In this document: positions 3,293-50,672 of the stretch, piece after piece
Position numbering within the stretch: the first letter of the stretch is position 1
Layout of the letters: every line of letters starts with the position of its first letter
NCBI GenBank assembly: GCA_043228905.1
Contig: JBHGNT010000021.1
Location: 7,068,001-7,132,000 of the forward strand
DNA: 64,000 nt
Direction: 5' to 3'
Origin: Azolla caroliniana
Lineage: Eukaryota; Plantae; Polypodiophyta
The notes under the pieces: generated by a model
Databases searched by the model: none
What the model was told of the DNA's origin: nothing
Seen by the model: the letters and a program-made list of their open reading frames with translations, nothing else
Program-made: the position numbers and the translations under genes

Positions 3293-3322
3293 TTTCTGCA
3301 GCAGTTCGCTCTGATACCAGTT

Positions 3323-3929
3323 TGACGGGAATTAACCCTTCTAATCACCTTCTTCGCCCGGCCACAACCGAGTAAGCGCGAATCGATGGAGCAGAAAATA
3401 GGAACCACACGGAGAAACAAAACGCGAGTACACAGGGATTAACGTGGAAAACCCTAGGCGGGAAAAACCACGGGAGTACGAGACTCCAAACCAACACTAT
3501 ACAGAGAAGTATACAATGGGGAGCTGCAAGGCGACGACCTTGAGCTCGCTGTCCTCGCCACAGGCGGCGGAAATACACAGAGGCGTCTACCTCTTCCTCT
3601 CTCGCGCTCTATCTCTCTCACGGCTGCTCTCTCTTCACTCCTCTAAAGTGGAAAAACAGAAAAAAATAAGAAGCAACACTAAAACTGTTTGCCCTAAGTC
3701 ATATTTATACTTATATGACTTTGGGCTATTTACAACTGTAGCCACAGGGGCCCATAGCGAACATATTCACGGATATGTCCCTGCATCCGGATCGCTCTCC
3801 GGGTACATTCGTCATCCGGTACCGAAACCGGGGTCTTCGTCATCCGGTGCCGAAAAACCGATACCGGGCTTGTCGGCATTCATCTCCGATATCCGACCAT
3901 CCCATCCGAAAGGGACCGAAATCCCAACA
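3323..3929 (-). repeat. 5' LTR of first copia
   Basis: TG...CA bounded, 3 nt from the PBS; TATAAATA on the minus strand near 3702-3709. Confidence 0.8.
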
Positions 3930-5998: not shown

Positions 5999-6003
5999 AT
6001 AAG

Positions 6004-11480: not shown

Positions 11481-11639
11481 ATAAGTAGGACCTCCTTACC
11501 ATTGTAGTTCAATGATAAGACCATTGCCAAGAACAAGATAGAAGAGAATAAGGACACTAGAAGAGAGAAAATAAGAGGACAATGTAATATATATATTTTT
11601 AGGAGGGCTTGCTTTTGACCATCAAAAGAGGATCTTCAT

Positions 11640-12730
11640 GGGTCTTGATACTTTAGATTTAGTGGAAACTAACATCTTAAAGTGCCCTTAAATTCAACTA
11701 TTATTGATTCCATCCATAGTGATATCATTGTTGGTGAATTTGCATATGATGTGTTGGATCACATAATTCGAGATCATGCTTCTTTTTCAAGGTCCAAAGG
11801 TTCTCATAAAAATTATAACAAGTCAAGTTAGCATGATTTGTTTTTTTCGAAATAATCTACTATATGTCCCTATTGATGGTCATTCTCAACTATGAATATT
11901 ACAACACTATCATGACATGCCAATGTTTGGACATTTTGGAGTCTGCAAGACTTAGGAATCAATTTCTCAAAGCTATTGGTGGTTGCAACGTCGTAACTTG
12001 GTTGACTACATTTGTAGTTATGATGCATGTTGTCAGTCAAAGTGTCCTCAACATTGACCATATGGATTGCTCCAACCCTTACCAATCCTTGATGGTCAAT
12101 GGAAGTTTATACCTTTGGATTTCATTACGTATCTCCCATCCTCAAAATTCTTATTGCCATTACACATTAGTTCACTAAAAGGGTACATTTCCTTCCATGC
12201 ATAAAAACTAAATTAATAGTCAAGAGATAACAAACAAGTCTAGATATGCTTGAACTATTTAGACATAATGGTCTTTCCATGACATCATTAACAGTAGATA
12301 TCTATAATTTATTTCTAAACTTTAGAAACACTTGCTTGGGATCATTTGAATTGATTGTTTAAAATCTCTTTGGGCTATCATCTTGAGATGCAAGGTCAAA
12401 TTGGTTGTACCAATCAAACATTGGACCATTATCTTCTACTAAATATGCTCCCTTCTTTTCCAACACAAGATTTTGTCCCCATTGGATGATGCTTGAACAT
12501 TCAAAAATCTCAAAAATCCTATGACAAAAGCCACACATAAGAAATTTGGTGACTGTAAAAGTCTAGACTCATCAGTAGAAGGACTTAAGTTTCAAGTTGG
12601 GGATCATGTATGGCTCTTATGACATAAAAATCAATTCGCCTTGCAATTAGTCAAATTATTAATGTCTTAATCTATATGTTATCACTAACCAAATCAATGA
12701 AGTTGTGTTTTGTCTCAATCTCCCTCCTCA
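11640..12730 (+). mobile_element. Highly eroded Ty3/gypsy integrase remnant
   Basis: ggattgctccaacccttaccaatc...tggatttcattacg...ttcactaaaagggtacatttccttccatgc resembles GLLQPLP..DFIT..FTK..HFLPC, as at 38035-38180; caagttggggatcatgtatgg resembles VGD.VW. Boundaries approximate. Confidence 0.65.
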
Positions 12731-12774
12731 TTTGTCGCCCGTACGCGCGCGCGCACACACACACACACACAAGC

Positions 12775-17335: not shown

Positions 17336-20631
<3,296 letters not shown>

Positions 20632-20711
20632 CTAGAGATCTGTTCTGTCTGTGCAGAGGGGTGAAGATGGAATGATGGATCAGGTGTTGGAGAGGGAGAG
20701 AATGAGCCTTT

Positions 20712-26600: not shown

Positions 26601-27193
26601 GAATGCATTGTTTATTAGTAAATTCTTGAATATCTAGAGTTACTACTCAATTCTAGAAATACTATGCAAAAATGTAGCACTTTTAGCCCCATAGATCATA
26701 TTAGATCTTCACCAACAATTATAATCTGTCTCTGTCTCTCTCCAATTTGCTTCAACTTATATATATTTGCTTCACCAGCAAATTGGGGGGGGAGAGAGAG
26801 ATAGATTTTATTATCATCTTCAAAGATCGAATAGGACCTATGAGACACAAAATGTTTCCACACAATACATCTGAATGTAGTAACAACTCTTGATGTTCAA
26901 GAACTTTACTAATGAATGTTGATGTTGGGATGCACACTACGACAATGAGAGAAGTTTGTGTCATGATTGGGTTTGGTTGATATGTGAATGTTGTAGCAAC
27001 TCTTGATGTCCAAGAACTTTACTAATGAATGTTGCGATCGCGAATGCACACTATGACCATGAGAGAAGTTTGTGCCAGGATTGGGTTTGGTTGATGATGT
27101 GTAGAAAGCATAGTCAAAGGTAATAAAAAGGCAAAGCATTGTATTAGTGTGTGATACTTGATTGGACTCATGATCTTAATGAGAAGTGATCTC

Positions 27194-27651
27194 TGTCATG
27201 AATCCGTGAACATTATGCTTCACCTGGACTTGAACCCAAGACTTCGTATTACGAAATTCGAACCCTAACAATTAAGGTAACCTATTAGGACGTGAAATTA
27301 TAAAGGCTACTTTTCATAGTGATTATTGTATTAGAGAAACTTCTGGAACTTTCCAGAACATTCTAGAAATCTTTTGGAACATCCTAGAATATTCTAGGGC
27401 CAAAACATTCTAGAACATTCTAGAAATCTCTAAGCTATTCTATAGAAACCTATAAATAGAGACAAATAGATCATATCAAATCAGTTCGAATCAACACCAA
27501 TCTTCAGCTCCAAGCCTACCTTGTATCCAACTCATCCTTGTACTCATTCTATTGTAATAAACCCACTCTTCTCTTATCAATCCATTCTCCTCTCTTCTTC
27601 CATTCTCTTATACCTTCCTTCAATTATTCAATCTCTTGCTTTGTTCTGACT
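27194..27651 (+). repeat. 5' LTR of chromovirus
   Basis: TGTCATGAATCC...TTCTGAC(T); colinear with 50185-50667; TATAAATA at 27451. Confidence 0.95.
27335..27426 (+). promoter_or_regulatory. Heat-shock element array in LTR U3
   Basis: GAAacTTCtgGAActTTCcaGAAcaTTCtaGAA is seven alternating nGAAn units; a further TTCtaGAAcaTTCtaGAA ends about 25 bp before the TATA. Confidence 0.75.
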
Positions 27652-27706
27652 GTTTGATTCGAACTCCTTCTCCATTACCTTCTTCCACAAACACTAGTCA
27701 GTACCC

Positions 27707-28673
27707 ATGGCTACTAGCAACCCACAAGAATACCTCGCCCTTGTTGCAGAAATGGAGAATCTCAAAAGCAAGTTTGCATCACTAGAGCTAGAGAATCAAC
27801 GACTGCTTGAAGATCTACATAAGGTTTCTGTAGAGAAGCAACAAATACACGACGAGTTTACATGAAGGGTTCAACAATTAGAGTCAGCAATCGTAGCTTT
27901 ACAACAATTAAAAGTCGATGGTGAAGGAGTTCTTAAAGAGCCCAAAATCAACCTCCCAGCTAAATTCGATGGTTCGAGAGCACATTTTCGGGGTTTTATA
28001 AATCAAGTGCAGTTGGTGATCCAGATGCATCCCACGCGTTATCCGACGGATTCATCTTGAGTTGGGTTAGTGGCCACTTTATTGACTGGCACGTCATTTT
28101 CATGGTTGGCTCCATTGCTAGAAGCAAATTCTCCCCTACTTAACAACTTTGAAGAATTTATCAAAGAGTTTAAGGCTTGCTTTGGAGACACATATAGTGT
28201 AAGAACGACAATCAACATGATTCGCATATTGCGACAAGGGGATCAACCAACATCAACATATGTTGCCAATTTTTGTCTCATTCCAAGTGATATTCCTTGG
28301 GACGAACAAGCCCTAATGGAGAAGTTTTGTTTGGGCCTCTGTGGAGATCTAAAAGATTTACTTCTTACCTTCCTTGAGGATCCAAAATCCCTTACAGAAG
28401 CTATTAGCCGAGTAGTACGGTGTCATAATCGGTTTTTTGAGCTCCGGTCCGAGCGACAATAACAACAAACAAGATCAAGATTTATACCAACTTCTGCATC
28501 AGTGACGGCACAATCTCCAAGGCAACAATATAGCCTTGTCCCAACTCTACGGCAAGCACATAGCCCAACATCAATGGATAGCCCGACACCGATGGAGATT
28601 GATATGACCCGGCGACAAGGACTGTTATCGGATGAAGAGAAACAACGTCGTCGAGCAAATCGACTATGCTTAT
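27707..28673 (+). pseudogene. Chromovirus gag (disrupted)
   Basis: ATG 27707; EPKINLPAKFDGSR..FINQV, PMEID, RRRANRLCL. The zinc knuckle is split by a copia insertion and resumes at 35456. Confidence 0.85.
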
Positions 28674-28740
28674 TGTAAAGAATCGATGGTGATTCTTGTG
28701 CAACGGAATAGACTAGAGATATGTGTTGTGAGTGTGTGTG

Positions 28741-28801
<61 letters not shown>

Positions 28802-31800
28802 AGATAGATTTTGAACAACAATAGAATACTCAAGACGATGTATATTACAAAGGAGATTAACCGAATTAATTACAAAGTAGGAGGAGAGTGCTTTATATAG
28901 TCCCTCTCTCTCTTCATTAACTACTGAAGCTCATGGGTCATGGGGAATGTGAAAAAACTCATTAGTTATGTGTCATAGAATATGATTCTATGACACATAG
29001 TTAATGTGTAGATAAGAGTGGTAACTTTTGACCTTTGAGTGCACACTCTCAAGGGTGTGTTCACACACTAGACTAGGTTGAGCTTGATTCTCAACATGCC
29101 CCCTCAAGCTCAACTTTGGTCGGCTATTTCGGTTGATGTCCGCTTCGGCTCGTATCCGGTTTGGACGGTATCCGGTTTTCTCTTGTACTCCTCCTCAAGC
29201 TTGGCAAGTCAAGGACCGTCAATCCAAGGTCTGACAGGAATTGCCAAAGCTTGTCGACTCCTAGGGCTTTGGTGAAGATGTCGACTGTCTGAAGATTCGT
29301 AGTGATATGTTGAAGGTCGACATCACCAGTATGAACACGCTCTCAAATGAAGTGATAGTGCACTTCAATATGCTTTGTGTGTTCATGGAACACCGAGTTC
29401 TGAGCCAGATAAATATTGCTCATGTTGTCATAGTAAAGGAGAATCGGATCTTTGATGGGAACGCCCAGATCCTTTAATATCCTCTTGAGCCATACGGCTT
29501 CACATGTAGCCACCGCTGAGCCCCTGTATTCGGCCTCTGTACTCGAAAGAGCGACGGTTGGTTGCTTCTTGCTACTCTAGGAGATGGCTCCACTTCTGAG
29601 GGAGAAGACGAAACTAGAGGTTGATCATGGGTCAGCTTTGTAGCCTCCCCAATCAGCATCTGTGTACCCATCGAGTTGAATTGGCGTGGCTGACTTATAG
29701 AGAATGCCATAGTCCATCGTTCCGCTCACGTATCGTAGCACTCTCTTAGCACAATCCAAATGGATATCTCCTGGCGTCTGCATGAACTGGCTAAGAAGGC
29801 CGACCGGATAGCTCAGGTCTGGTCGAGTGATCGTGAGGTAGATAAGACTACCGATCAGTTGTCGATATTGAGTTGGCTCACACTCTGTGGTGCCAGAATT
29901 GGCATCTAGTTTGAGGTTTCGGTCGAGAGGTGTTGCCACAGACTTGCACTCAGTCATCCCGAACTTGTATAACAGGTTGAGAATGTAGTGTCATTGGGAG
30001 ATCATAATCCCGCATGGAGTCCAAATTACCTCGATGCCAAGGAAGTAGTGGAGCTCTTTCATGTCTGTCATCTCGAATTTGTTGGAAATGAGGGATTTGA
30101 CCTTGTTGATGTCGACTAGATGCTCACCTCCAATGACCAGATCATCCACGTACAGGATGATGATGATCAAACTTTCAGAATCGCTTCTTACATAGAGAGA
30201 ATTGTCGGATTTTGACATTCAGAAGTCGATTCGATGAAGATATTGTGTTATCTTCGAGTGCCAAGCACGTGGTGCTTGCTTAAGGCCGTAGAGAGGCTTC
30301 TTGAGTCGGCAGATGACTTTTGGATGAATGTTGGATTCGAAGCTGGGTGGTTGTACCATGTACACCTCCTCTTCTAATTTGCCTTGAAGAAAAGAGTTTG
30401 TGACATCCATCTAGTGGAGGTGCCCACCCTTTCATTGCTGCAAGCGCTATCATGGTTCGTACGGTTATCATCTTTGCCACCGGGGCAAAGGTCTCTTCGT
30501 AGTCGATGCCCTGTGTTTGTGCGTAGCCCTTTACTACGAGTCAAGATTTGTAGCGGTTGACGGAACCGTCACCATTATACTTCACTTTGTATATCCATCT
30601 GTAGCCGATTGCCTTCTTGTGCGGTGAGTGAGGGAAAAGATCCCATGTCTCATTCTTGCTGAGAGCTTGCATCTCCTCTTTCATCGCTTTGACCCATCGC
30701 GGATCTTTAGCGGCTTCAGCAAAGCTCTCCGGTTCTCGAATTGCTGCCACCTTCATCATAAAGGCATAGTGGTATGCCATATTGTCGTTGTAGCCAAATC
30801 GGCTAACCAGATTCTTCTCTCGGGTGGAGTGACGGAGTTTCTCATTTGCCGATGTGAGTGCTTTCTCAACTCTAGGTGACCTTATAAGAGGCACATCAAA
30901 GCCATTGAACTCACTATCGAGTGAATGAGTTGATTCGTTGTCGTCGAAGTGATCGTCTTCATATTCCAACATTTTGGCCTTCTCTTTGTCCATATTTGGA
31001 CTTGGCCGAGATGTGCTTTGGTTGCTTGTAGGCTCTTGTGGTTCGCTCAATTTGGTTGAGATCGGACTCTCTTCGAGTATTGACATTAGTTGATCATCGT
31101 CTTTTGTGTTGTCGAGGTTATTCGTAGATGGCTCAAGAGGAGTCGGCTCGGGTTTGTACCATGATGTCGATTAGTCAAAGACGACATCCCGACTTACACG
31201 AGTCTTCCGAGTAGAGGGGTTGAAGCACTTGTACCCCTTTTGCTCTAGTGAGTACCCCACGAGGATGCACTTCTCTGATTTTGGGTCAATCTTTTGCCGC
31301 TTCTCGTCGGGAATGTGCACATATGCAATGGAGCCTAATATCCTTACATGGGATAGATCTGACTTCTTCCCATAGTATTTCTCGTGTGGGGTGACCTCAT
31401 GCACTCCGGATGTTGTGCACTAGTTCATGAGGTAGACAACGGTATTTGCAGTTTTTGCCCAATTGAGTACCCCACGAGGATGCACTTTTCTGCTTTTGGG
31501 TCTAGCTTCTGCCGCTTCTCATCAGGAATGTGCACGTATGCAATGGAGCCGAATATCCTTACATGGGATAGATCCGGCTTCTTCCCATAGTATTTCTCGT
31601 GCGGGGTGACCTCGTGCACTCCGGATGTTGTGCACCGGTTCATGAGGTAGACAACGGTATTTATGGAAACACTTCGCTCTTCATCCTCATGGGAAAGATC
31701 CATGTGTATCTAGAGAAGTCATCGATGAAGGTAATATAGTACCGACATCCTCCGAACGTAGCCGTTTGTGCCAGTCCCCACACATCCAAGTGGACTACGT

Positions 31801-34717
31801 CCAATAGGCCTTTGCTCACGTTCCTCTACTTTGGGAACGAGTGCCGATGTTGCTTGCCGAATTGGCATGCTTCACATACTCCTTCAATATCTTTCTCTTT
31901 GAAGGTCGGGAGGCCGATGACGACTCCTTTCGATTGCATCACCTTGAGTTTGTTGAGATTGATATGGCCGATTCTTTTATGCCATAGCTCTATGTTGGTG
32001 TCGGGTTTGAGGCCCCTTGCAAACATGGACGATTTTACCTCGTTCGCTTCGAGGATAAACATTCGGCCTTCCCTTTGACCACGAGCAATTAGTCGGCCTT
32101 CCTTCTCGATGAAGCAACCTCCTTGGTTGAATCGAACTTGCATCCCTTGCTCCACAATTTGGCCGACTGAGACCAAATTCTTCGTTTTGGTGGGTACATG
32201 TAAGACATTTTTTATGCCAGTTTGTTCACCTTCTTTCCCGAATGGGACATTGCCGACATGCCGAATCGGATGAGTGGTGTCGTCTCCGGTCTCGACATAA
32301 GCGGATCGATCCGGCTCTCGAAGGTCTTTGAACCATTCTTGATGTGACGTCATATGGTTCGAAGCACCGGAGTCGACAAACCATACATCTTTCGGATTGG
32401 AGGTATTAGTCGAAGTAGAGGCCGACATAGAATTTGCTCTATGTCTCATTACAAACATTCCACCATGATCTTCATAGTCGGAGTTGGTGGCGTAATTGGT
32501 GAGTTGTTGGCTTGTGGAAGCCGACTCGCGTTGTCGTGAAGATTTTCGGCAATAGTGTGAAAATCCTATAAAACGTACGAAATCGAGTATGAATCACGTA
32601 GTACAATAATTGTGAAGATAACATTTTAAATAGATTTAATATCTAAGTACAAAATGATGGAGGTTTCGAATGCACTTTATTACACGAGAAACATACAACT
32701 AAATGTCAAGATATGAGGGTATAAAGTTTGTAAAAGGAAAGGAGAAAATTGTGAGATATCCCACATAGGCACGACAAATACAGCTCTCATCATATATAAG
32801 GTGGAGCAAAAGATATTATCTTTCTGTCTATGTGTGGAGCATAGAGAGTTCAAGGTAACTTGAACTAAGAGTGGAGGTGGGCTAGCTACTCGTAAAAGGG
32901 TTTTGGCCAACCAAAACCGGACCGACGATGGACCCGATGATCCGGCGGCATCCGACGGCATCCGGTGGCGGCACCGGTATCCGGCGAACCGGCGTCCGGC
33001 GACTAGATAAATAAATATATAAATATATATACATATTTACATATACAAGGAGGGCAAGTAAGGATTTGAACCTTGCACCTCCAAGTTAGGAGTCAATTGG
33101 CTTACCTTTAAGCCATGGTATTTAGTTAAAATTATATTTCTATCATTGTAGTTTTACATGTAAATTCTCATACATGAGAGCTAAAATGAGTGACATGGTT
33201 ATCATGCACCACATGTAATGCTTAAGCGCCAAATGGCAAACATGCAATTTATGCATGTCTTGTACCCTCACATGCATCATATGCATGAGAGCATCTATAA
33301 AAGAGGGGAGGGGGAGGAGAAAAAAAACACGGTTTTTTTTATGAAAATTAAGAGGAAGAAATTCGTTATCAAATCAATCGTGTAATCTCAACTTCTCTCT
33401 TTCCCAATCTATCTTAAGTACTTTCTCGCCAAAGCTTGTATCGACTCTAAATCCTTCTGGTCCAGAACCCCGGCGGTTCCGCCTCACGATCTGCGCGTAG
33501 TGACGGATCTTCACGACAACGCTTCTTCTTTCGGCACTCTTTTTCATGGTGGCCAATTTTTCCGCAATAACCGCATTTGATCGAGGTTTGTTGGCTCGGA
33601 CCAGAATGGAAGCTCCCCCTTCTTCCGAAGGTTCCTCGATGGCTTTCATTTTGTTGCCGAAATTGGGAGTTCTTGCCATAAGTCGGACCTTGTCCGCCTT
33701 GTCCTTGGCCGAATCGGCCTCTTGCTCGGCCGCGTCCTCTTCCTCCATTCGAATGTGTGTAGAGCATGTGGACTTCCGAGGTGTCGCTCCTTTTTCGAAC
33801 ATGGTTTTCTTCAACCAACAACATGGATTGAAGATAGAAGAAAGAGGGAGGATTCTCCCTTGCTAGGACGACGGTTCTCATCGTGCCGAACCATGGTGCA
33901 AGGCTTCCAAGGCATATTTGCACCATCTCATCATCATCCACATTGACGCTTATTGAGCCGAGCGAGTCACAAAGCTCCTTGATCCTCAAGGTGTAGCTTG
34001 TGATGGACATGTCCCGTTGTTGGATGTTGTTCAACTCTTGACGGAGTTGAAGCTTTCGTGCCGTTGTATTGGCGGCGAATATCTTCCTTAGATTCTCCCT
34101 TGCTTCCTTTGGCGTCTTGGCTTCTCGAATGTAGCCGAGCATGTGGTCATGAACACATGTCACCAAGCAATACATTACTTGACTCGCTGCTTGCTCTCTT
34201 GTTGCATAGTCGGCGTCTTCCGGATCGGGCCGGTTTTCTTGTGCTCCTTTGATGTAGCTCCAATAGCCTTGACCGACAAGGTATTGATGCATCTTGTACT
34301 CCCAAGATGCGAAGTTGTTTCGGTCCAACTTCTCGCTAGGGAGAGCACTCCCCATTTGAGTATTCATGGTGTTCGATGTAGATTTCTTCCTTCTTCTTCT
34401 CTCTTGAATACGTGCTATGTAGTTGCACTACAATAGCGATGAGCCGTTTCTTCTTGAACGTCGGCGTAGAGCTCAACACATGCGGATGGGCGAGATCAAG
34501 CTACCAATACCATGTAAAGAATCGATGGTGATTCTGGTGCAGTGGAAGAGAGAGAGAGAGAAACAAGATAGATAGATTTTGAAGAACAATAGAATACTCA
34601 AGACTATGCATATTACAAAGGAGATTAACCAAACTAATTACAAAGTAAGAGGAGAGTGATTGATGGTGATTCTTGTGCAGCCGAATAGACTAGAGATATG
34701 TGTTGTGAGTGTGTGTG

Positions 34718-34755
<38 letters not shown>

Positions 34756-34906
34756 GATAGATAGACTTTGAAGAACAATAGATTACTCAAGACTATGCAT
34801 ATTACAAAGGAGATTAACCAAACTAATTACAAAGTAAGAGGAGAGTGATTGATGGTGATTCTTGTGCAGCCGAATAGACTAGAGATATGTGTTGTGAGTG
34901 TGTGTG

Positions 34907-34944
<38 letters not shown>

Positions 34945-35095
34945 GATAGATAGACTTTGAAGAACAATAGATTACTCAAGACTATGCATATTACAAAGGA
35001 GATTAACCAAACTAATTACAAAGTAAGAGGAGAGTGATTGATGGTGATTCTTGTGCAGCCGAATAGACTAGAGATATGTGTTGTGAGTGTGTGTG

Positions 35096-35150
<55 letters not shown>

Positions 35151-35450
35151 ACAAGATAGATAGATTTTGAACAACAATAGAATACTCAAGACGATGTATA
35201 TTACAAAGGAGATTAACCGAACTAATTACAAAGTAGGAGGAGAGTGCTTTATATAGTCACTCTCTCTCTTCATTAACTACCGAAGCTCATGGGTCATGGG
35301 GAATGTGAAAACTCATTAGTTATGTGTCTTAGAATATGATTCTATGATACATAGTTAATGTTTAGATAAGAGTGGTGACTTTTGACCTTTGAGTGCACAC
35401 TCTCAAGGGTGTGTTCACACACTAGACTAGGTTGAGCTTGATTCTCAACA
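28674..35450 (-). mobile_element. Ty1/copia element nested in gypsy gag, degenerate
   Basis: TSD CTTAT (28669-28673; 35451-35455); 3' LTR 28674-29096; expanded 5' LTR 34513-35450; PPT 29097-29110; gag starts MNTQMGSALPSEKLD at 34367; fragmented pol. Confidence 0.96.
32531..33519 (+). mobile_element. 989-bp LTR-like insertion with 13-bp terminal inverted repeats, inside copia gag
   Basis: TTGTCGTGAAGAT...ATCTTCACGACAA; splits KKKR/ESAS of the host; CG on both sides; CTATAAAAG at 33295. Confidence 0.85.
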
Positions 35451-35455: not shown

Positions 35456-38400
35456 ATTATGGAGGTCTACGACATATTGCCATTCACTGCCCGCACAGAC
35501 CGAGACGTCAGGTACATCACATTAACTATGATAATAGAAATGAGTCTAGCATCGTTGAAACTGTGCCAACTAGTGATTCTAGTAATCCAACTCTATCTAA
35601 TAAGTTTGAGGTCCTAAGACAATTAGAAGAGGAGTCAAACGAATAAGTCTGGCCAAAATCGGAGCCGTTTGGTTGGATAGTCCCATAGCTTCTGGAAAGA
35701 TATTCGAGGAGTCTGAGGCGATACACATATAGTCTTAGGTGATCTAGGATGTGTAGTTTCCTTTAATCCGTAGCCCTGAGCATCCAATAGTCCGTGGTTT
35801 GCCATGGTTCGAGCTACACAACCCAAGAATTGATTGGAGACGATGAGAAATTAGGTGCCCTTCAAAAGGAAACATAGTAGTCAAGGGTCGAACAGAAGAT
35901 CCTCTTGAAAAGCATAGTGTTACCAATTCACCCTCTACCAAACACGTTGTTCCTCTTCATCAGATTTCAACCATCATCCTACAACAATTATGCCAAGAAG
36001 GAGCAAAAGAAGATTTATTCTTATTTGCCATACCAGTTGCACCTTCTAGTGACACTCAAGGGAAGTCAGAGGTCTACATTCCTAAAAAGTACCAAGAATA
36101 TGTTGATTTCTTCGACAAAGTCAAAGCTAGTGTACTTCCAAAGCATCGGCCATACGATTGTCCCATTGATCTACAGCCAGGAAAAGAGCCACCATGGTGT
36201 CCGATCTATAATCTGTCACCAACAGAGCTTGAGGTTCTTCGAGCATACATCGATGAGAATCTTGCAAGTGGGTTTATTCGACATTCAAAGTCTCCAGCTG
36301 GTGCTCCTATCTTTTTCGTGAAGAAAAAGGACGGCTCACATCGTTTGGTAGTGGATTATCGGGGATTAAATAAAGTCACAATAAGAAATAGGTATGCTCT
36401 ACCTTTAATTTCCAGTCTTTTAGAGCGCATTGGTCGGGCAAAGCATTTTACCAAAATTGACCTAAGGGGTGCATATAATCTTGTCCGTATTCGACCGGGA
36501 GATGAATGGAAGACTACATTTCGCACTCGGTATAGCCATTTCGAGTATACAGTAATGCCTTATGGGCTCACAAATGCTGCCACCGTGTTTCAACATATGG
36601 CAGATGACATTTTCCGAGATTTTCTAGATATCTTTCTCATCATCTATTTAGATGATCTATTGATTTACTCTAGAACATAGGCGGAGCATGATATACATGT
36701 GCGAAAGGTACTCCAACGCTTAAGAGAGTATGGTCTTTATGCCAAACTGGAGAAGTGCAGTTTTGATTGCAAAGAAGTTGAGTTCTTGGGTTACCATTTC
36801 ATCCAAAGGTATCTTCATGGATCCAACGAAAATTCAAACAATATTGGAATGACATACTCCAAATTCCGTTCGCAATGTCCAGTGTTTCCTTGGATTTGCC
36901 AACTTCTACCGCAAATTCATATGAAATTATTCGAAGATTGTATTGATGCTCACTCAACTCACCAAGAAAAATCAAGCATTTGTTTGGACTCCTGAAGCAG
37001 ACAAAGTCTTTACTCAATTGAAAGAGGCATTCACATCAGCTCATGTCTTAGCTCATGTTGATCCAGAAAAGCCATATACCATTGAGGCAGATGCATTCGA
37101 CTTTGCATTGGGGAGCATCCTATCATAACCAAGTGAAGATGGGCAGTTGCATCCAGTCGCGTTTCACTCAAGAAAATTTAATGTTGCGGAGATCAACTAC
37201 GAGGTGCATGACAAAGAGTTACTAGCTGTGGTCGACTCTTTTGTGCAATGGCGACATTTCTTGGAAGGTTCGCCTCATCAAATCATCCTTTATAGTGACC
37301 ACAAAAATCTTTCACTCAAGAAAATTTAATGTTGTGGAGATCAACTATGAGGTGCATGACAAAGAGTTACTAGCTGTGGTCGACTCTTTTGTGCAATGGC
37401 GACATTTCGTGGAAGGTACGCCTCATCAAATCATCATTTATAGTGACCACAAAAATCTTACATATTTGCAACAAGCTCGGTGAGCGCAATTTTTAACTCG
37501 TTTTGATTTCAAGATCATTTTCCGCCCAGGGAACAACAAGGGCAAGAAAATGCTCTATCTCGACGCCCATATTTGGCACTTCGCCTTGGAGATCCAGCTT
37601 TCGACAATCAAAAGCAAGTTCTCCTTGGTCCAACAAAACTACAAGCTACCACGGTTTGTGCCACGCCACTGGATTCAAGTCTTCTTGATACTATTCGACA
37701 ACAACTTCACTTTGATGATTTTGCTAAGGATGTCTTCGCCCACCTTGGTCCAAATCATGGATTGCTAGGAACATCTCGACGCTATAAGGAGTTCAAGCGG
37801 CAAGATAACTTACTTTTCTACAAGAATCTCCTTTATGTCCCTGATGGATCACCATGCCTTCGAGTGTTGGAGCACTGTCATGATGCCCGTATGGCCAGAC
37901 ACTTTGGTATTGCCAAGACCATGGAGCTAGTGAAGTGATCATTTTGGTGGCCTCATTTACAACAATTTGTTGAAGATTACGTTCACACATGTGACACATG
38001 TTGTTGAGCCAAAATGCCTAAGCATCATCCTTATGGGTTGTTACAACCATTGCTGACTTCGAGGAAGCCATGGCAGTCAATTTCTATGGATTTCATTACA
38101 GATCTGCCACCTTCACAGGGTTTTGATGCTATTTTAACCGTAGTGGATTGATTTACCAAGATGGCACATTTTTTGCCCTGCATAAAGAGCATCAGTAGTC
38201 AAGAAAGAACAGATATCATTATGCGTGAAGTATTTTGCCATCATGGTCTTCCAAACGACATAATTAGTGATCGTGGCCCGCAATTTATCTCTCATTTTTG
38301 GAAGCACCTATGTAACAGGCTCCGAATCTCTTGCAAATTGTCTTCAGCATATCATCCTGAAACTGATGGCCAATTAGATCACACAAATCAAACACTTGAG

Positions 38401-38732
38401 GAGTATCTTCGATGTTTCATCAGTTATCAACAAGATGATTGGAGTAATATATTGCATCTTGCAGAGTTTGTGTACAATAACACCATACACTCTTCTACCA
38501 AGGTCACACCTTTCTATGCCTATACTGGAAACCATCCTCGATGGTGTCTCTTGGACATTCCAGTGATCTCACCAAACCCTAGTGCGGAGCAACACCTCCA
38601 CCGACTACAACAACTCCAGTCTGAGTTGTCTTCACATCTTCAGAAAGCTCAAGCCCAACATAAGGCCCACACATATCGACATCGTCTTCCGTCTCCATTC
38701 AAGATTGGTGATCGGGTATGGTTGTTACGCCG
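35456..38732 (+). pseudogene. Chromovirus pol (PR, RT, RNase H, integrase), disrupted
   Basis: [77 protein letters not shown]; a 150-bp tandem duplication at about 37160-37460. Confidence 0.95.
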
Positions 38733-39287
38733 TGTTGAGAATCAAGCTCAACTTGGTCTAGTGTGTGAACTCACCTTGAGAGTGAAGAGACACTCCAATG
38801 GTCAAGAGTCACCATTATGTCACCACTTTGTATTCTAGCATTTAGTATGAGTCATAGAATCATATTCTATGACACATAACTTATGAGCTTTCACATTCCC
38901 CATGCTCCATGAGTCTTGTAGTTAATGAAGAGAGAGGGTGACTACATAAAGCACCCTCCTCCCACCTTGTATGATGTTGAGTCTTTCTCCTTTGTCAATA
39001 TACCTTTTACCTTGCGTATTCTATGTGTTTCACTCACTCACTCACTCACTCTCTCTCTCTTACACACACACATAACTCACATCTCTTCCACTTCACAAGA
39101 ATCCATCTCTTGATTCTTTACATGATATCAGAGCGATTTGGTAGCTCGATCTAGCCCATTCTCCTCATCGTGATCGTGTGTTGTGCTCTATGCCGACGAC
39201 CAAGAACCGGCTCATAGCTATCGTAGCTTCGCTACATAGCTCGCATTCGAAGAGAGAAGAAGAAGAAGAAGAAGAAGAATTGACATA

Positions 39288-42200
39288 ATGAATACTCAAA
39301 TGGGGGAGCGCTCTCCCTACCGAGAAGTTGGATCGAAACAACTTCGCATCTTGGGAGTACAAGATGCACCAATACCTTGTCGGACAAGGCTATTGGAGCT
39401 ACATCAAAGGAGCGCATGAAGACCGACCCGCCGAAGCGGCTCCTGGATACGCAACATGGGAGCAAGCCGCAAGCCGCGTGATGTATTGTTTGGCGACATG
39501 TGTTCACAACCACATGCTCGGCTACATTCGAGAAGCCAATACGCCGAAGGAAGCGTGGGAAAATCTACGAAAGATTTTTGCCGCCAACACGACCGCGAGG
39601 AAGCTTCAACTCTGCCAAGAGTTGAACAACATTCAACAAAGGGACATGTCCATCACGACATACACCTTGAAGATCAAGGAGCTTTGCGACTCGCTTGGCT
39701 CAATAAGCGTAAGTATGGATGATGATGAGATGGTGCAAATATGCCTCGGCGGCCTCGCACCACGGTTTGGCGCGATGCGAACCGCCGTTCTAGCACGGGA
39801 GAAATCTCCCTCCTTCTTCGAGCTCCAATCAATGCTATTGGTCGAATAAAACCACGTGCGTACAAGGAGCAATGAGTCGGAAGGCCACATGCTCTACACA
39901 CACTCTAATGGAGGAAGAGGACGCGGACGAGTGAGAGGCCGATTCGGCCAAGGACAAGGCGGACGAGGTCCGACCTACGACAACAACTCCCAATTTCAGC
40001 CGCAAAACGGAAGCCAACGAGGAACCTTTGCAAGAAGGGGGAGGTTCCACTCTGGCCCGAGCCATCAAAACGCAACCGAATGCGGATATTGCGGAAAGCT
40101 CGGCCACCACGAAGAAGAGTGTTGAAAGAAGATGCATGAATCGGCCTCCACAAGCCGACAACTCACGAATTATGCGCACAACTCCGACTACGAAGATAGT
40201 GGCGGAATGTATGCACACAACTCCGACCGTGGTGGAATGTACGGGCACAACTCCGACTACGAAGATCGTAGCGGAATGCATGTACACAACTTCGACCGTG
40301 GCAGAATGTTCATGATGAACTTGCATCCCTTGTGTGCCTCTGGTCCGGAAGACGTATGGTTCGTCGATTCCGGTGCCTCGAACCATATGAAATCGCATCA
40401 AGAATGGTTCTGAGAACTTCGAGAGCCGGACCGACCCGGCTATGTCGAAACTGGAGACGACACTACGCACCCGATTCGGCACATTGGCAATGTTCCGTTC
40501 GGAAAAGAAGGTAGCAAAATTACATTAAAAATGTCTTGCATGTACCGACCATTACGAAGAATTTGGTCTCTGTCGGCCAAATTGTAGAGCAAGGGATGCA
40601 AGTTCGATTTAATCAAGGCGGTTGCTTCATCGAAAAAGAAGGCCGACTCATCGCACGCGGACGAAGAGAGGGCCGGATGTTCATTCTCGATTCACATGAG
40701 ATGAAATCCACCATGTTCGCGAAAAACACGAAAGACGACTCCGACATAGAGCTATGGCACAAACGAATCAGCCACATCAATCTCAACAAACTCAAAGCAA
40801 TGAAATCGAAAGGATTCGTCATCGGACTCCCGACATTCAAAGAGAAGGAGATTGAAGGTGTATGCGAAGCGTGCCAATTCGGCAAGCAACACCGACACCC
40901 ATTCCCGAAAGAGCAGAATGTGAGCAAAGGTCTACTCAATGTAGTCCATTCCGATGTATGGGGACCGGCGCAGACGGCTACATTCGGCGGATGCCGATAT
41001 TACGTGCTCTTCATCGACGACTTCTCTAGGAACACTTGGATCTGCCCGATGCAGGAAAGGAGCGAAGTGTTCAGACACTTCCAAAATTTCAAGAATGAAG
41101 TCGAGAAAGTCACGGGCCGACATGTACGTTGTCTTCGATCAGATGGCGGCAAAGAGTACTTCTCGGATGACTTCACGACATATCTCCGAAAGGAAGGAAT
41201 TCGGCAAGAATTCACTTGCCGACACAGTCCGCAACAAAATGGGGTAGCCGAGCGCAAAAATCGGCACATCCTCGAAGTAGCACGGGCCATGATGAATGAG
41301 AAGCATATGCCCAAGTCATATTGGGCCAAAGCTGCAAATATGGCCGTCTACCTAATGAACTGGTGCACAACATCCGGCGTGCATGAGGTCACTCCGCACG
41401 AAAAATACTTCGGAAAGAAGCCGGACTTATCGCACATCTGGATATTCGGCGCGATAGCGTACGTGCACATCCCCGATGAGAAGCGTCAAAAGCTTGACCC
41501 GAAGTCGGAGAAATGTATCCTCGTAGGATACTCATTAGAGCAAAAGGGGTACAAGTGCTACAACCCCTCAACTCGAAAATCTCGAGTAAGTCGAGACGTC
41601 GTTTTTGACGAGTCCGCATCCTGGTACGCACCAGAGACAACTCCGACTCCGACTCCGGTCAACCCGGAATTCGCCGAACAAGAGATCGAGCATGAAGATC
41701 GCCTTATGCGCATATTCGAAGAAAGTCCAATCACGACCCGATTGAGCGGACCACAAGAGCCTTTGAGCGATCAAAGCACATCACGGCCTAGCCCGAAGAT
41801 GGACAAAGGCAAGGCGAAAATGGCGGAATACGAAGACGATCGCTTTGACAATGATGAATCGACTCACTCACTCGATAGTGAGTTTGGCGGTTTCGATGTA
41901 CCAATCAGAGCTAAGAAAGCCCTCATCTCTGCAAATGAAAAGCTCCGCCGATCCACCCGTGAAAAGAACCTCGTAATTCGATTCGGCTACAACGATTATA
42001 TGGCGTACCATTACGCCTTTATGATGAAGGTAGCGACAGTACGGGAGCCGGAAACCTTTTCGGAAGCCGCGAAGGACCCACGATGGATCGAAGCAATGAA
42101 CGAGGAGATGCAGGCACTACGGAAGAATGAGACGTGGGATCTCGTTCCCACCTCACCACACAAAAAGGCGATCGGATGCAGATGGATCTACAAGGTGAAG

Positions 42201-43613
42201 TATAATGCCGATGGCTCCGTAAACCACTAAAAAGATTGACTCGTAGCGAAAGGATACGCTCAGACGCATGGCATCGACTACGAAGAGACCTTTGCCCCGG
42301 TGGCAAAGATGATGACGGTGCGGACCGTAATTGCGATTGCCGCGGCGAAAGGGTGGCACCTCCATCAAATGGACGTCAAGAACGCCTTTCTACAAGGCGA
42401 ATTAGAAGAGGAGGTGTACATGATCCAACCACCTGGCTTCAACTCGAGCACCCATCCGAAAGCTGTTTGCCAACTCAAGAAGCCTCTCTACGGCCTCAAG
42501 CAAGCACCGCGTGCTTGACATTCGAAGATAACGCAATATCTTCATCAAATCGGCTTCCGTATGTCAAAATCGGACAACTCCCTCTACATACGAAGCGATT
42601 CCGCAAGTCCGATCGTCATCATCTTATATGTGGATGACCTAGTCATTGGAGGTGAGCATCTCGTTGAAATCAATAAGGTCAAATCCCTCCTTTCCGACAA
42701 GTTCGAGATGACGGACATGAAGGAGCTCCACTACTTCCTCGGCATCGAGGTAATTCGGACTCTGGCCGGAATCATGATCTCTCAATGACACTACATCCTC
42801 AACTTGCTATAAAAGTTCGGGATGGCTGAGTGCAAAACCGCGGCAACCCCGCTCGATCGCAATCTCAAACTAGATGCGAACTCCGGCACCAAAGCGTGTG
42901 AGCTGACTCAGTATCGGCAACTCATCAGGAGTCTGATCTACCTCACGATCACACGACCCGATCTCAGTTATCCGGTCGGTCTCCGTAGCCAATTCATGCA
43001 AACACCGCGTGATACTCACTTGGATTGCGCTAAGCGAATTCTACGATACATGAGTGGCATAATGGATTGCGGCATCCTCTACAAGACCGCGATGCCAATA
43101 CGACTCGAGGGGTACACATACGCTAATTGGGCCGGCTACAAAGCTGATAGAAGATCAACCTCCGGATTTGTTTTCTCCCTGGGCATCGGAGCAATATCCT
43201 GGAGTAGCAAGAAGTAGCCCACCGTCGCTCTTTCGAGTACGGAGGCGGAATACAGGGGTGTAGCCGTAGCTGCGTGTGAAGCCGTATGGCTCAAGAGGAT
43301 TTTGAAGGATCTGGGCGTACCCATCAAGGATTCGACTTCCCTTTACTGCGACAACATGAGTAGTATCTATCTGGCTCGGAACCCGGTGTTCCACGCGCGG
43401 ACAAAGCACATCGAAGTGCACTATCACTTCATCCGAGAGTGCGTTCTGGCTGGCGATGTCGACCTACAACACATTAGCACCAATCTTCAAACGGCCGACA
43501 TCTTCACTAAAGCCTTAGGAGCCGACAAGCTATGGAAATTCATGACCGATCTCGAATTGACGATCCCTGACCTGCCAAGCTTGAGGGGGAGTACTGAAGA
43601 CACTACGCAATAA
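39288..43613 (+). pseudogene. Copia gag-pol with multiple premature stops
   Basis: MNTQMGGALPTEKLD..., [58 protein letters not shown]; in-frame stops at about 39847, 40123, 40411, 42228, 42516, 42786, 43215 and others. Confidence 0.95.
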
Positions 43614-44089
43614 CGTGTGGATTTCGCAACCATGCAACGAAGCAACGAAGAGCCGATCTACCGCGCAAAGCCGCGAAGAAAGACGCAAGCTGAAGCACAG
43701 ACTTCGCACAACGCAAGCTGGAGCACGGATTCCGCAACTCCGCATAAAGCGAGCCGACGCAAGTTGACGCGGACTCCGGAATGCGAGTTGAAGCGGATTT
43801 CGGATACCGTCTGAAACCGACCCGACTTGAGCTTGAGGGGGCGTGTTGAGAATCAAGCTCAACTTGGTCTAGTGTGTGAACTCACCTTGAGAGTGAAGAG
43901 ACACTCCAACGGTCAAGAGTCACCATTATGTCACCACTTTGTATTCTAGCATTTAGTATGAGTCATAGAATCATATTCTATGACACATAACTTATGAGCT
44001 TTCACATTCCCCATGCTCCATGAGTCTTGTAGTTAATGAAGAGAGAGGGTGACTACATAAAGCACCCTCCTCCCACCTTGTATGATGTT

Positions 44090-47000
44090 AGTTGAAGACA
44101 AGGCCGTGTCGATGCGGAAGATCAAATAACATTCGATTCGTGTTGAGAACCTGCGTATGACAGTTTGCAAGATCGTGCACAGAGACAGAGAGAGAGAGAG
44201 AGAGGCACCAAAGACTTTCTATTCAATAGAAACAATAATACAACCAACCTTACAAAAAGGTTACAAGGTCACTATATATAGTGACCGACTTAGGGCAACT
44301 ACCATTTATGCTAATTACACAAATGGTCCAAACTTGATCTATACAAAGGGATAGTGTGAATACGTCCATTATACACTTGTATTCGACACTCCCCCGTAAT
44401 GGGCGTATACATGGGTTATCTAAGATTACAGGTATCAACCTAGGTTCTCGGACATATCAGTTTTGTTCGAGTCGGCAGGGTCCGAAGGCAGAAGACCGGA
44501 CTGGTCGGGTCGGAAGAGTTGAAGCCGATCATTAAGGAACTGATGTCGGTTGTCTGAAACCATCCTGCGCTGTGTCCGGCTCTAACCGGACTGGTTTGTC
44601 GTTACGCCCATCTGATGCCGAAGGGACCGAAAGCGGTCTGCCGAAAGACACTTGGTCATTCCATCTGCGACATTGTCGGTTGTGGATATTTTCTCTAGAC
44701 CGATTTTCCCTGAAATGACGCAGTCCCGAACGAAGTGATATCGAACGTCGATATGTTTGGAGGCGTTGTGGTGAACCGGATTTTTCGACAAGGCAACAAC
44801 ACCTTGACTGTCGCTATAGACAATTGGGGCCGAGTCATGGTCGACTTGTCGAAACGTGTGCGCCAGCCGGCCGAGCCACAAAGCTTCTTTTGCAGCGTCG
44901 GACGCAGCTACATATTCTGCTTCGGTCGTTGAGGTCGCTGTGCACTCCTGAAGTTTCGACTTCCACGAAATTGCTCCATTGCCGAATTTGAAGCAGTATC
45001 CGGTTGTTGATTTCCGACTGTCTATACAGCCGGCGAAGTCCGAGTCGGTGTAACCGACTACGCCTGAGGTTGAGTTCGGACCGAAAAGAATGCCGTGATC
45101 TTTTGTGCCAGCCAGATATTTGAACACATGCTTGACTGCGTTCCAATGCGATCGGCCAGGATTGTGCATAAATCTGCTAACGACTCCTACGGCATGAGAG
45201 ATATCAGGCCGTGTCGCGACCATCAGGTACATAAGGGAGCCGACTGCCGGTGCATACGGTACCGACTTCATATCTTCCCCCTCCGGACCGGATGTCGGGC
45301 AGTCTCGCTGAGAGAGCCGAAGATTCATGGGGAGCGGGGTTGAAGCAGATTTGGCTGATTGCATGTTGAAGCGTTCCAAGACACGTCCGATATAGTCGGT
45401 CTGAGACAAAAAAAGATGTCGTTTGTCGCGATGCCGACTGATCTTCATGCCGAGTATGTGTCGTGCCGGACCGAGGTCCTTCATGGCAAACTTCAACCGC
45501 AGTTGCCGAATGAGATCGGCAAGTTCGCCCGCGTGGCGTCCAGAAATTAGCATGTCATCCACGTAGATGATGAGGAAGATGGGTGATCCATCTTGAGCTG
45601 TGTTGGTAAAAAGACAATGGTCCTCATCGCTTTTTGAGAAGCCGATCGATTGGATGAAGTCGTCGAACTTCTTGTACCATTGTCGCGGTGCCTGTTTGAG
45701 GCCGTATAGACTCTTCCTGAGTCGGCAGACTAGATGTTCTTGGCCAGTTGCCACGAAGCCTTTTGGCTGTTCCATATAAATTTCCTCTTCAAGATCACCA
45801 TGGAGGAAGACTGTTTTGACATCTAGCTGAATCAGCTCCAAGTTGTCGGCTGCCACTACGCCGAGTAGAAAACGAAGGGTTGTCATTTTCACCACTGGTG
45901 AAAAAATCTCGTCGAAGTCGACGCCATATTCTTGTCGGAAGCCCTTCGCAACTAATCTGGCCTTGTACTTTGGGGTGGTCGAATCAGACGTCTCTTTTAG
46001 TCGATAAACCCACTTGCAAGGAAGAGCACGTCGATTCTTAGGTAATTCGACCAGATCCCAAGTCTTGTTTGCCCGAATGGAGTGCATTTCCGACTCCATC
46101 GCCAGATGCCAGGTGGCTGAATCGACAGATGTCGATGCTTCTTCGTAAGACGTCGGTTCGCCGGCGTCGGTGAAGAAAATTCCAGGAGAATACCTCTCCG
46201 GAGGTTGCGACAGTCTCTCGGATCGTCGAGGTATGATTGGACTGGTCGCATCGGGTATCGAGGTCGGATGGTCCGAAAGCGAATTATTCTGCTGTGCCGA
46301 GTCAGAGTTGTCCGAGTCGGTGGTGTAAGGTTCAGCTACCCGTGAAGCTGACCGTGTGTTAAGAGCGGGGCCTTCTTGAAGGGTCGGCACATCGGAAAAT
46401 GTTACCCTTCGGACTTCGATCGGTTTTTCGACTGATGGATTCATAGCCGACTCGTTGAACACAACGTCCGAACTTCGAACGATTTGTCTGCGTTCGGGGT
46501 CCCAGAGTCGGTATCCCATTTCGCCGTCTGATCCATATCGAAGGAAAATGCATTTCCTGGACCGAGGTGCAAGTTTTCGGCGATCATCTTTCGGAATAAG
46601 GGCGTACGCCTCGCATCCGAAGATCCTCAGCTTGTCGTAATTCGGCTTACTGCCGATCCATAGTTCCTGAGGAATTTGAAGTCCTAGAGGTCTGCTTTGC
46701 GACATATTGATTATGTGTACTGCCGTGAGTAGAGCCTTTGCCCAGAAGCCATCCGACAGTCTGGAGTGTTGGAGCATGGAAACTATCCGTTCTTGGATTG
46801 TCCGATTCATGCGTTCTGCAATCCCGTTTTGCTCCGGACTGTGTGGTGCCGTAAATTCACGTCGGATGCCGCGTTGTCGGCAGAATTTGACGAATTCTTC
46901 TGATTTGAACTCTCCCCCATTGTCGGTCCGAAAGCATTTCAGTTTTCGGTCAGTTTGATTTTTTACCATAGCGAGCCAATCGGAGAAGATCGAGAAGACA

Positions 47001-49609: not shown

Positions 49610-49882
49610 ATGTTGAGTCTTTCTCCTTTGTCAATATACCTTTTGCCTTGCGTATTCTATGTGTTTCACTCTCTCTCTCTCTCTCTTACACACACACATA
49701 ACTCACATCTCTTCCGCTTCACAAGAATCCATCTCTTGATTCTTTACACGCCGTCACATAAAGACTACTCGACCATGTGATAAGCTAGATTATAAATGCT
49801 TGGGTCCTTTTGTCAGCACGAAGCGGATTAATGATGCAACATTCTGTCTTGATCTTCCTGCAAAGTCTTTCATAGCTTTGTT

Positions 49883-50146
49883 TTGGAACCTTACCACACC
49901 ATCTCGATTCCCAATCGTGTTGTGCCGCCACCGCCTCCTCTCCAACTTGCTGATGGCCTAGAGTACGAGGTAGCCTCCATTTTCGATTCTAAGATTGTGC
50001 GCAATACGTTGTATTATCTAGTTGATTGGCTAGGGTATACCCCGAGTGATTGCACATGGGAACCCGTCGATAATGTTTGTAATGCTCAAGCTCTTATCGA
50101 TGACTTCCATTGTCACTATCCCAACAAACCCGGCCCTGCATTGTAA
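49883..50146 (+). pseudogene. Chromodomain at the C-terminus of the gypsy integrase
   Basis: PPPPLQLADGLEYEVASIFDSKIVRNTLYYLVDWLGYTPSDCTWEP: group I chromodomain with aromatic cage residues. Confidence 0.9.
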
Positions 50147-50184
50147 ACAATTCCTTCCACGCGTCGTTTTAAAAGGAGGGATAG

Positions 50185-50667
50185 TGTCATGAATCCGTGA
50201 ACATTATGCTTCACCTAGACTTGAACCCAGGACTCCGTATTACGAAATTCGAAGCCTAACCATTAAGGTAACCTATCAGGACGTGAAATGATAAAGGATA
50301 CTTTTCATAGTGATTATTGTATTAGAGAAACTTTTGGAACTTTCTAGAACATTCTAGAACATCCTAGAATATTCCAGGTCCAGAACATTCTAGAACATCC
50401 TAGAATATTCTAGGTCCAGAACATTCTAGAACATTCTAGAAATCTCTAAGCTATTCTATAGAAACCTATAAATAGAGACAAATAGATCATATCAAAATAG
50501 TTCAAATCAACAACAGTCTTTAACTCCAAACCTACCTTGTATCCAACTCATCCTTGTACTCATTCTATTCTAATAAACCCACTCTTCTCTTATCAATCCA
50601 TTTTCCTCTCTTCTTCTATTCTCTTATACCTTCCTTCAATCGTTCAATCTCTTGCTTTGTTCTGACA
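50185..50667 (+). repeat. 3' LTR of chromovirus
   Basis: TGTCATGAATCC...TTCTGACA; longer TTCTAGAACA array (about 50326-50441) than the 5' LTR. Confidence 0.95.
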
Positions 50668-50672
50668 ATCTC

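What the first reader, a model, noticed from the sequence alone, without database searches (positions are those of the whole stretch)
27451..27665. Tf1-type self-priming signature instead of a tRNA PBS
Seen: no TGG-type PBS follows the 5' LTR. Instead TTGATTCGAACT (27654-27665) is the exact reverse complement of AGTTCGAATCAA (27483-27494), which begins 25 nt after TATAAATA, where transcription should start. The 3' LTR version continues ..AACAGTC, which could extend pairing to GACTGTT at the LTR end. Known: fission-yeast Tf1 primes reverse transcription with the first 11 nt of its own RNA, and self-priming has been proposed for related chromoviruses. Inference: this plant element self-primes. 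Together with the HSE array and tRNA-like module it forms a compact stress-inducible, tRNA-independent design, and is the best candidate system in this window.
Basis: partly seen in the sequence, partly recalled or inferred. Interest (0 to 1): 0.8.

Follow-up and report, generated by a model that had tools for sequence, protein, structure and literature searches.

The report
Self-priming plant retrotransposon, known kind
A dead jumping gene (LTR retrotransposon), probably of a moss-like plant, has no tRNA primer site; the 12 bases after its left repeat pair with the predicted start of its own RNA and change in step with it across related families, so it likely primes its own copying, as shown for yeast Tf1 and already predicted in print for this plant group.

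Summary
27654-27665 is the exact reverse complement of 27483-27494, 2 nt past the 5' LTR end of a decayed Ty3/gypsy chromovirus (1 of 20,000 shuffles). Relatives keep the pairing. Of 33 elements whose RNA start could be placed without using the primer site, 24 pair 12/12 and 4 pair 11/12. Six of the 12 pairs change on both sides, and none of 53 has TGG. Self-priming is likely (0.9), but no transcript start or cDNA was seen. Heat-shock arrays are absent from one self-priming clade, so the combined 'design' is unsupported. This is not a new system: Neumann et al. 2019 predicted self-priming for 83% of 1,500 plant Tcn1 elements, and this scan noted the same twice on other genomes. What it adds: covariation evidence, a 12-nt primer with a GT spacer, and a possible hairpin masking the 3' primer copy.

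The parts
27189..27193 (+). 5' target-site duplication ATCTC
   Evidence: same 5-mer at 50668-50672
27194..27651 (+). 5' LTR (458 bp), TGTCA...TGACT; the last base is T in this copy and A in the 3' LTR and the family
   Evidence: 93.4% identical to the 3' LTR over 458 columns
27218..27283 (-). antisense tRNA-like stretch in U3 carrying a B-box-like motif; not called as a tRNA; no shown role in priming; ends approximate
   Evidence: ARAGORN and Rfam negative
27340..27448 (+). array of nTTCnnGAAn heat-shock-element-like units in U3 (motif recalled)
   Evidence: 7 overlapping three-unit matches
27451..27458 (+). TATA box
   Evidence: 32-33 nt before the primer in 29 of 30 well-paired elements
27483..27494 (+). 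predicted first 12 nt of the RNA = predicted self-primer
   Evidence: the start itself is not measured
27495..27502 (+). conserved CRCYAGTC after the primer: unpaired C13, then a short interrupted helix predicted with GT and the LTR end; G18 reads A in this copy
   Evidence: conserved but without two-sided changes
27652..27653 (+). 2-nt spacer GT between LTR end and primer-binding site
   Evidence: TGACA-GT in 38 of 53 anchored elements (the anchor itself was this motif with up to 2 mismatches)
27654..27665 (+). primer-binding site, complement of 27483-27494, no TGG
27707..28673 (+). gag, broken by three stop codons and by a nested insertion; its end lies at 35456-35646
   Evidence: (PF03732, PF16297, PF19259)
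28674..35450 (-). nested copia element A (duplication CTTAT); not part of the priming device
35616..38732 (+). pol: protease with about 220 bp missing, including the catalytic motif; RT; RNase H with a short tandem duplication; integrase; stops and frameshifts
38733..49748 (+). nested copia element B (duplication CGCCG) carrying copia element C (44091-49609, minus strand) in its 3' LTR
49964..50110 (+). chromodomain at the end of integrase, with aromatic residues at the cage positions (read by eye)
   Evidence: (PF00385, E 9e-14)
50171..50184 (+). polypurine tract
50185..50667 (+). 3' LTR (483 bp), ends TGACA; its copy of the primer (50499-50510) has one mismatch to the primer-binding site
50668..50672 (+). 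3' target-site duplication ATCTC

Best explanation
This is a decayed Ty3/gypsy chromovirus, likely of the Tf1/sushi group, whose primer-binding site pairs with a 12-base stretch that is predicted to be the 5' end of its own RNA, so its family likely primes reverse transcription with its own RNA rather than a tRNA. SHOWN in sequence: a 12-bp complement with sharp ends, 32-33 nt after a TATA box and 2 nt after the LTR end, kept with mirrored changes across related families. INFERRED, by analogy with Tf1: (1) RNA polymerase II starts at A27483. (2) Nucleotides 1-12 fold back onto the primer site. (3) The element's RNase H cuts at the unpaired C13, freeing a 12-nt primer. (4) RT extends it across the GT spacer and U5-R, so the cDNA would end CA-GT and integrase would trim 2 nt. 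(5) The retained primer is copied back into the primer site on the plus strand, which would keep the two sequences in mirror step. This copy can no longer do so itself (stops, protease deletion, three nested copia elements).
For: Chance 1 of 20,000. With R placed by TATA plus a downstream motif and without the primer site: 24 of 33 pair 12/12 and 4 pair 11/12, 3 of these 4 with G-U. The 14 distinct primer/site pairs average 10.8 Watson-Crick pairs against 8.1 when partners are permuted (0 of 100,000). In 23 chosen elements, 6 of 12 pairs have two-sided changes; 39 cells against 12.9 +/- 2.8 (0 of 500); sliding the register by 1-3 leaves 15-52% paired. RNAalifold finds the helix unaided. About ten mirrored changes fall on separate branches of the gag tree (by eye). 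Position -1 and position 13 pair in 0 of 22 and 0 of 23 elements, so the helix stops exactly at the predicted start. +1 is A in 30 of 33 and -1 a pyrimidine in 32 of 33. TGG in 0 of 53. The RT groups with a fungal and seven frog elements apart from seed-plant and algal ones (SH-aLRT 99, quick tree). Self-priming is demonstrated for Tf1 (PMC7175516) and predicted for 83% of 1,500 Tcn1 elements (PMC6317226 supplement).
Against: No transcript start, cleavage or primed cDNA was observed. The host tRNA set could not be searched. Five of the 33 pair poorly: L056 10/12, L031 5/12 (probably a false anchor), and L077-L079 7/12 (a distant family, 41-42% gag identity, with only an interrupted duplex). 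Twenty of 53 had no upstream R anchor. Two of the five measures do not beat shuffles (pairs with two-sided change 38 of 500; further pair types 280 of 500), and those shuffles ignore relatedness. In L005 a downstream R copy pairs only 10/12 with the site, so some contigs may be chimeric. The third duplex of the Tf1 'pretzel' was not found (4 of 23 at or under 13 of 200 shuffles; this copy 50 of 200), and the inner helix is no stronger than shuffles in most elements.
Confidence: 0.9

Rival explanations
1. A host tRNA fragment primes the cDNA. The primer-site complement resembles a tRNA T-loop (GTTCGAATC; motif recalled), and the match to R is incidental.
For: AGTTCGAATC and, in other families, GGTTCAA resemble T-loop/B-box sequence. 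Half-tRNA priming exists in plant copia lineages (PMC6317226). The host tRNAs were not searched.
Against: The T-loop-like motif sits at positions 2-7 in this family and 6-12 in others, and variants such as GGATCAA and GAGTCAA break it. Nearly every change in the site is mirrored in R, which a tRNA primer would not cause. No TGG in 53.
Confidence: 0.03
2. The duplex is real and conserved but serves another purpose (RNA packaging, dimerisation, translation control), or R starts elsewhere, and priming uses an unidentified RNA.
For: Covariation shows that pairing, or templated copying, is kept; it does not show cleavage and priming. The full three-duplex Tf1 structure was not found.
Against: The helix sits 2 nt from the LTR end, where a primer must bind, ends exactly at the predicted +1 and has a fixed length of 12. 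No other primer site is present. The closest named RTs are fungal and vertebrate, the hosts of the group in which self-priming was shown.
Confidence: 0.06
3. The complement is a chance match in one decayed copy, helped by the palindromic TTCGAA core.
For: The core is palindromic, and 25 of about 63,400 mock positions in the window also reach 12 nt.
Against: 1 of 20,000 shuffles; kept with different letters, mostly without the palindrome, in other families.
Confidence: 0.01

Closest known systems
Plant Tcn1-clade chromoviruses (REXdb; Neumann et al. 2019, PMC6317226: passages, supplement MOESM5 read whole; Novikova et al. 2010, PMC2864245: passages)
   Same: Gypsy order with a chromodomain; 5-bp duplication; 5,671 bp without nested inserts (clade range 5,466-9,444); gag and pol in overlapping frames (L009); no tRNA site; at least 10 nt complementary to the LTR starting 0-5 nt after its end, which is Neumann's own criterion.
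   Different: In the passages read, Neumann's prediction rests on complementarity alone; covariation, TATA spacing and the flanking bulge are added here. No named Tcn1 sequence was available for the tree. The per-element supplements (MOESM1, MOESM3) were too large to read and may list this family or its primer. Novikova found no self-priming signal in Selaginella SM-Tcn1.
Tf1/Tf2 of Schizosaccharomyces pombe and the Tf1/sushi group (PMC7175516, PMC10085805, PMC11042837, PMC4600332: passages; the original Levin papers recalled, not read)
   Same: RNA 5' end complementary to the primer-binding site; chromodomain integrase; RNase H in pol.
   Different: Tf1 uses 11 nt and cuts between 11 and 12; here the helix is 12 bp. 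The Tf1 site appears to follow the LTR directly (my reading); here 2 nt (GT) intervene. Tf1 needs three duplexes; here only the central one and a short, weakly supported inner one were found. Tf1 has one ORF (recalled); this family has two overlapping frames.
TAR lineage of plant copia elements (Houba, Osr-1), predicted self-priming (PMC6317226)
   Same: Self-priming predicted in plants (89% of 203 elements).
   Different: Different superfamily: integrase precedes RT and there is no chromodomain.

Membership tests
Ty3/gypsy chromovirus | LTRs with TG...CA ends and a target-site duplication; gag-PR-RT-RH-IN order; C-terminal chromodomain | tested here: met
   the 5' LTR's last base is T in this copy only
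Tf1/sushi group | RT groups with fungal and vertebrate chromoviruses, apart from seed-plant chromoviruses | tested here: met
   quick tree of 52 rows, split SH-aLRT 99, midpoint root, long branches flagged; the named rows are labelled by host, not by element family. Gag's best solved relative is PEG10 (its sushi origin is recalled).
Tf1/sushi group | primer site complementary to the RNA 5' end, no tRNA site | tested here: met
   (the 5' end is predicted from the TATA box)
Tf1/sushi group | three-duplex 'pretzel' around the primer site | tested here: inconclusive
   central duplex yes; inner duplex conserved but without covariation; leader duplex not found with a 14-nt duplex test
Tf1/sushi group | RNase H cleavage of the RNA 5' end and priming from it | not testable with these tools
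   needs cDNA or in vitro data
plant Tcn1 clade | RT/RH/IN monophyly with reference Tcn1 elements | not tested
   no named Tcn1 sequence was returned, and the paper's FASTA supplement was too large to read
plant Tcn1 clade | group I chromodomain with aromatic cage | tested here: met
   Y in EYEV, W and Y in DWLGY, read by eye; PF00385 E 9e-14; also found in Chlamyvir and Galadriel
plant Tcn1 clade | 5-bp duplication, 5.5-9.4 kb, gag and pol in overlapping frames | tested here: met
   L009 ORFs 111-1418 and 1382-5038 in different frames; ranges
plant Tcn1 clade | host is a moss or club-moss | tested here: inconclusive
   host not identified; the neighbouring gene is a glutamate dehydrogenase, without a useful taxon
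tRNA-primed plant chromoviruses (Galadriel, Reina, Tekay, CRM, Chlamyvir) | primer site starting TGG, complementary to a tRNA 3' end | tested here: not met
   0 of 53 anchored elements have TGG within 8 nt of the LTR end

The most novel reading that the evidence does not exclude
These plant elements run a distinct version of self-priming: a 12-nt primer released at a fixed bulged C, a retrovirus-like CA-GT cDNA end and no Tf1-type pretzel. In many families a hairpin across the U3-R border can form only in the 3' LTR part of the RNA, and it would hide the second copy of the primer so that only the true 5' end can prime. An unrelated hairpin in the distant L077 family suggests that this arose twice.
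Probability: 0.2. Interest if true: 0.5.

Novelty: new member of a known kind. Interest (0 to 1): 0.22.

Why it matters
It adds no new kind of system. It turns a printed prediction, made from complementarity alone, into one with comparative support: in these plant chromoviruses the RNA start and the primer site change together. I found no paper showing this in plants (searches; open-access full text only). It also gives exact predictions (start at +1, cut after nucleotide 12, CA-GT cDNA end) that 5' RACE or cDNA-end sequencing could test. Those would bear on whether the clade brought its priming mode from fungi.

Tried and rejected
Whole-genome search for family copies and host tRNAs: no genome is held for this window, so tRNA matching was not done. 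Viral contigs: no relative of the RT. Sequencing runs: no RNA holder listed. All 8 runs laid were contigs, which cannot show a start; two guessed-RNA runs laid nothing. No conclusion on expression. tRNA calls in U3: ARAGORN 0 in the window and 0 of 21 U3 stretches at default score; relaxed scores gave 4 and then 38 scattered calls that I treat as noise; Rfam gave no tRNA match in the window LTR or in L077; the stretch folds no better than shuffles (z -0.8). Third pretzel duplex: no support. U3-R masking hairpin: at best 10-37 of 300 shuffles reach it per element, and it is absent from this copy, so it is kept only as a lead. Atlas look-ups gave only generic RT and dehydrogenase clusters. The careful RT tree did not finish, so the quick tree is reported. 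The Tf1 review PMC6388632 is not held. Searches on heat-shock elements in moss gypsy LTRs (0 papers) and tRNA-like LTR modules (1 unrelated listing) found nothing relevant.

Full report
Observation. Aligning the two repeats gives LTRs at 27194-27651 and 50185-50667, flanked by ATCTC on both sides and 93.4% identical over 458 columns. TTGATTCGAACT starts 2 nt after the 5' LTR and is the exact complement of 27483-27494, 32 nt after the first T of TATAAATA. One of 20,000 dinucleotide shuffles of the LTR matched as well, anywhere in the LTR; 25 of about 63,400 mock LTR ends in the window reached 12 nt, this one included. The 3' LTR copy of the 12-mer has one mismatch.

The element. Pfam finds gag, RT, RNase H, integrase and a chromodomain in gypsy order, split by nested copia elements at 28674-35450 and 38733-49748, the second carrying a third. 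Without them the element is 5,671 bp. It is dead: gag has three stops, about 220 bp of protease including the catalytic motif are missing relative to L001 and L009, and pol has stops and frameshifts. The signature therefore describes the family, not this copy's present activity.

Relatives. A gag search and an alignment of 40 gags retrieved 79 loci, the best of 185 confirmed matches. Of the 79, 12 had no upstream sequence, 9 no LTR-end anchor and 6 were cut before R; 52 plus the window were analysed. Searching for the best complement without using the TATA box, 30 of 53 paired 11 or 12 of 12; 29 of those 30 had a TATA box 32 or 33 nt upstream, and the other was cut off. To avoid circularity I then placed R by TATA plus the downstream CRCYARTC motif, without the primer site. 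This placed 33 of 53: 24 pair 12/12, 4 pair 11/12, 1 pairs 10/12, 3 pair 7/12 (L077-L079, a distant family) and 1 pairs 5/12 (L031, probably a false anchor). Of the 20 not placed, three have an R copy downstream that pairs 12, 12 and 11 plus G-U; L004 pairs 12/12 but is cut; five show a decayed R; eleven show no R in the stretch printed. The 14 distinct primer/site pairs, poor ones included, average 10.8 pairs against 8.1 when permuted (0 of 100,000).

Covariation. I aligned 23 elements chosen for having R, leaving out seven close duplicates, L031, L077-L079 and all unplaced ones except L004. RNAalifold finds the 12-bp helix unaided. Six of its 12 pairs change on both sides; 39 such cells against 12.9 +/- 2.8 in shuffles (0 of 500); sliding the register by 1-3 leaves 15-52% paired. 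Two of five measures do not beat shuffles (38 and 280 of 500), and the shuffles ignore kinship. On a quick gag tree about ten mirrored changes fall on separate branches, counted by eye. The helix has sharp ends: position -1 does not pair with the base after the site in any of 22, and C13 faces T in 23 of 23. None of 53 has TGG. These loci are short-read contigs of repeats and may be collapsed or chimeric; L005 has a downstream R that differs from its own.

The extension. The T at 27651 reads A in 274 of 286, 552 of 552, 168 of 179 and 6,498 of 6,874 depth units in four runs, and R15 is C in 23 of 23 5' LTRs. In the family the predicted inner structure is a bulged C13, two pairs with GT, an internal loop and three pairs with GAC. 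It is conserved, has no two-sided change, and is no stronger than shuffles in most elements. The leader duplex of the Tf1 three-duplex structure (described in PMC10085805, passages) was not found.

Mechanism. In Tf1 the first 11 nt pair with the site and RNase H cuts between 11 and 12 (PMC7175516, passage), and the site is copied into the cDNA 3' end (PMC11042837, passages). By analogy I infer a start at A27483, fold-back, a cut at C13, extension over GT and U5-R, and re-templating of the site from the retained primer. That last step would produce mirrored changes without needing double mutations. Steps after the pairing are untested. A tRNA-fragment primer is unlikely because the T-loop-like motif shifts register between families and breaks in several, while R follows the site's changes; host tRNAs could not be searched.

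Comparison. The RT of L009 (91% identical to the window's over 135 residues) is 60-66% identical to a fungal and six of seven frog elements (the seventh 55%) and 50-59% to named seed-plant ones. A quick tree of 52 rows puts it with the fungal and frog elements (SH-aLRT 99). Gag's best solved relative is PEG10. Neumann et al. 2019 (PMC6317226; passages and supplement MOESM5 read; MOESM1 and MOESM3 too large to read) state that most Tcn1 elements of mosses and club-mosses lack a tRNA site and are predicted to self-prime, 83% of 1,500, with 5-bp duplications, overlapping gag and pol and cage-bearing chromodomains. This element meets each of those features. Monophyly with named Tcn1 references was not tested and the host was not identified. 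Passages of PMC2864245 and PMC3350952 place group I chromodomains and Tcn1 in non-seed plants and report no priming signal for SM-Tcn1. Two earlier notes of this scan reached the same reading on other genomes; I saw them after forming mine and count them as no evidence.

The combined design. Three-unit heat-shock elements occur in the window's clade and in four of the five L010-clade elements with enough U3, but in 0 of 9 elements of the clade that holds L017 (two cut short). An antisense B-box-like motif near the U3 start is common (15 of 21) but no tRNA was called there. Self-priming is thus not tied to stress induction, and neither module was shown to function.

Verdict. Real and well supported, but a new member of a kind already predicted in print. 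Interest 0.22. The features worth a bench test are the 12-nt primer with a GT spacer and the possible U3-R masking hairpin, which is a lead only.

Noticed in passing
L018, L028, L050, L010, L045 (U3-R border, -12 to +16); L077 (-16 to +6): A hairpin of 9-11 bp spans the predicted start and would hide part of the 3' LTR copy of the primer; L077 has one of unrelated sequence. Absent in the window copy, L005, L022 and L058; weak against per-element shuffles.
   Followed up: partly
window 27218-27283 (minus) and U3 of relatives: An antisense B-box-like motif near the start of U3 in 15 of 21 LTRs, including distant L077, which also has an A-box-like motif; no tRNA called at default scores. No null model was run.
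   Followed up: partly
L077-L079: A distant family (41-42% gag identity), three near-identical copies, with TATA, CACCAGT and TGACA in the same places but only an interrupted primer duplex.
   Followed up: partly
R positions +6 to +16 in most relatives; window 27483-27492: The RNA start itself resembles a B-box (motif recalled), in two different registers in different families; possibly coincidence.
   Followed up: no
window 28674-35450, 38733-49748, 44091-49609: Three copia elements nested in the chromovirus; element A has a triplicated 189-bp unit at its LTR (34547-35252); C has 99% identical LTRs and an open 1,367-aa frame, so it is young.
   Followed up: no
window 17978-20700 (minus): Intron-containing glutamate dehydrogenase gene with a 48-bp tandem repeat in an intron (19775-20165).
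   Followed up: no
window 11602-12734: A second, much more decayed gypsy pol remnant (26-37% identical to L009 pol).
   Followed up: no
L009 111-6725: gag, an open pol, one LTR and a second gag head to tail: a tandem pair sharing an LTR or a collapsed assembly.
   Followed up: no
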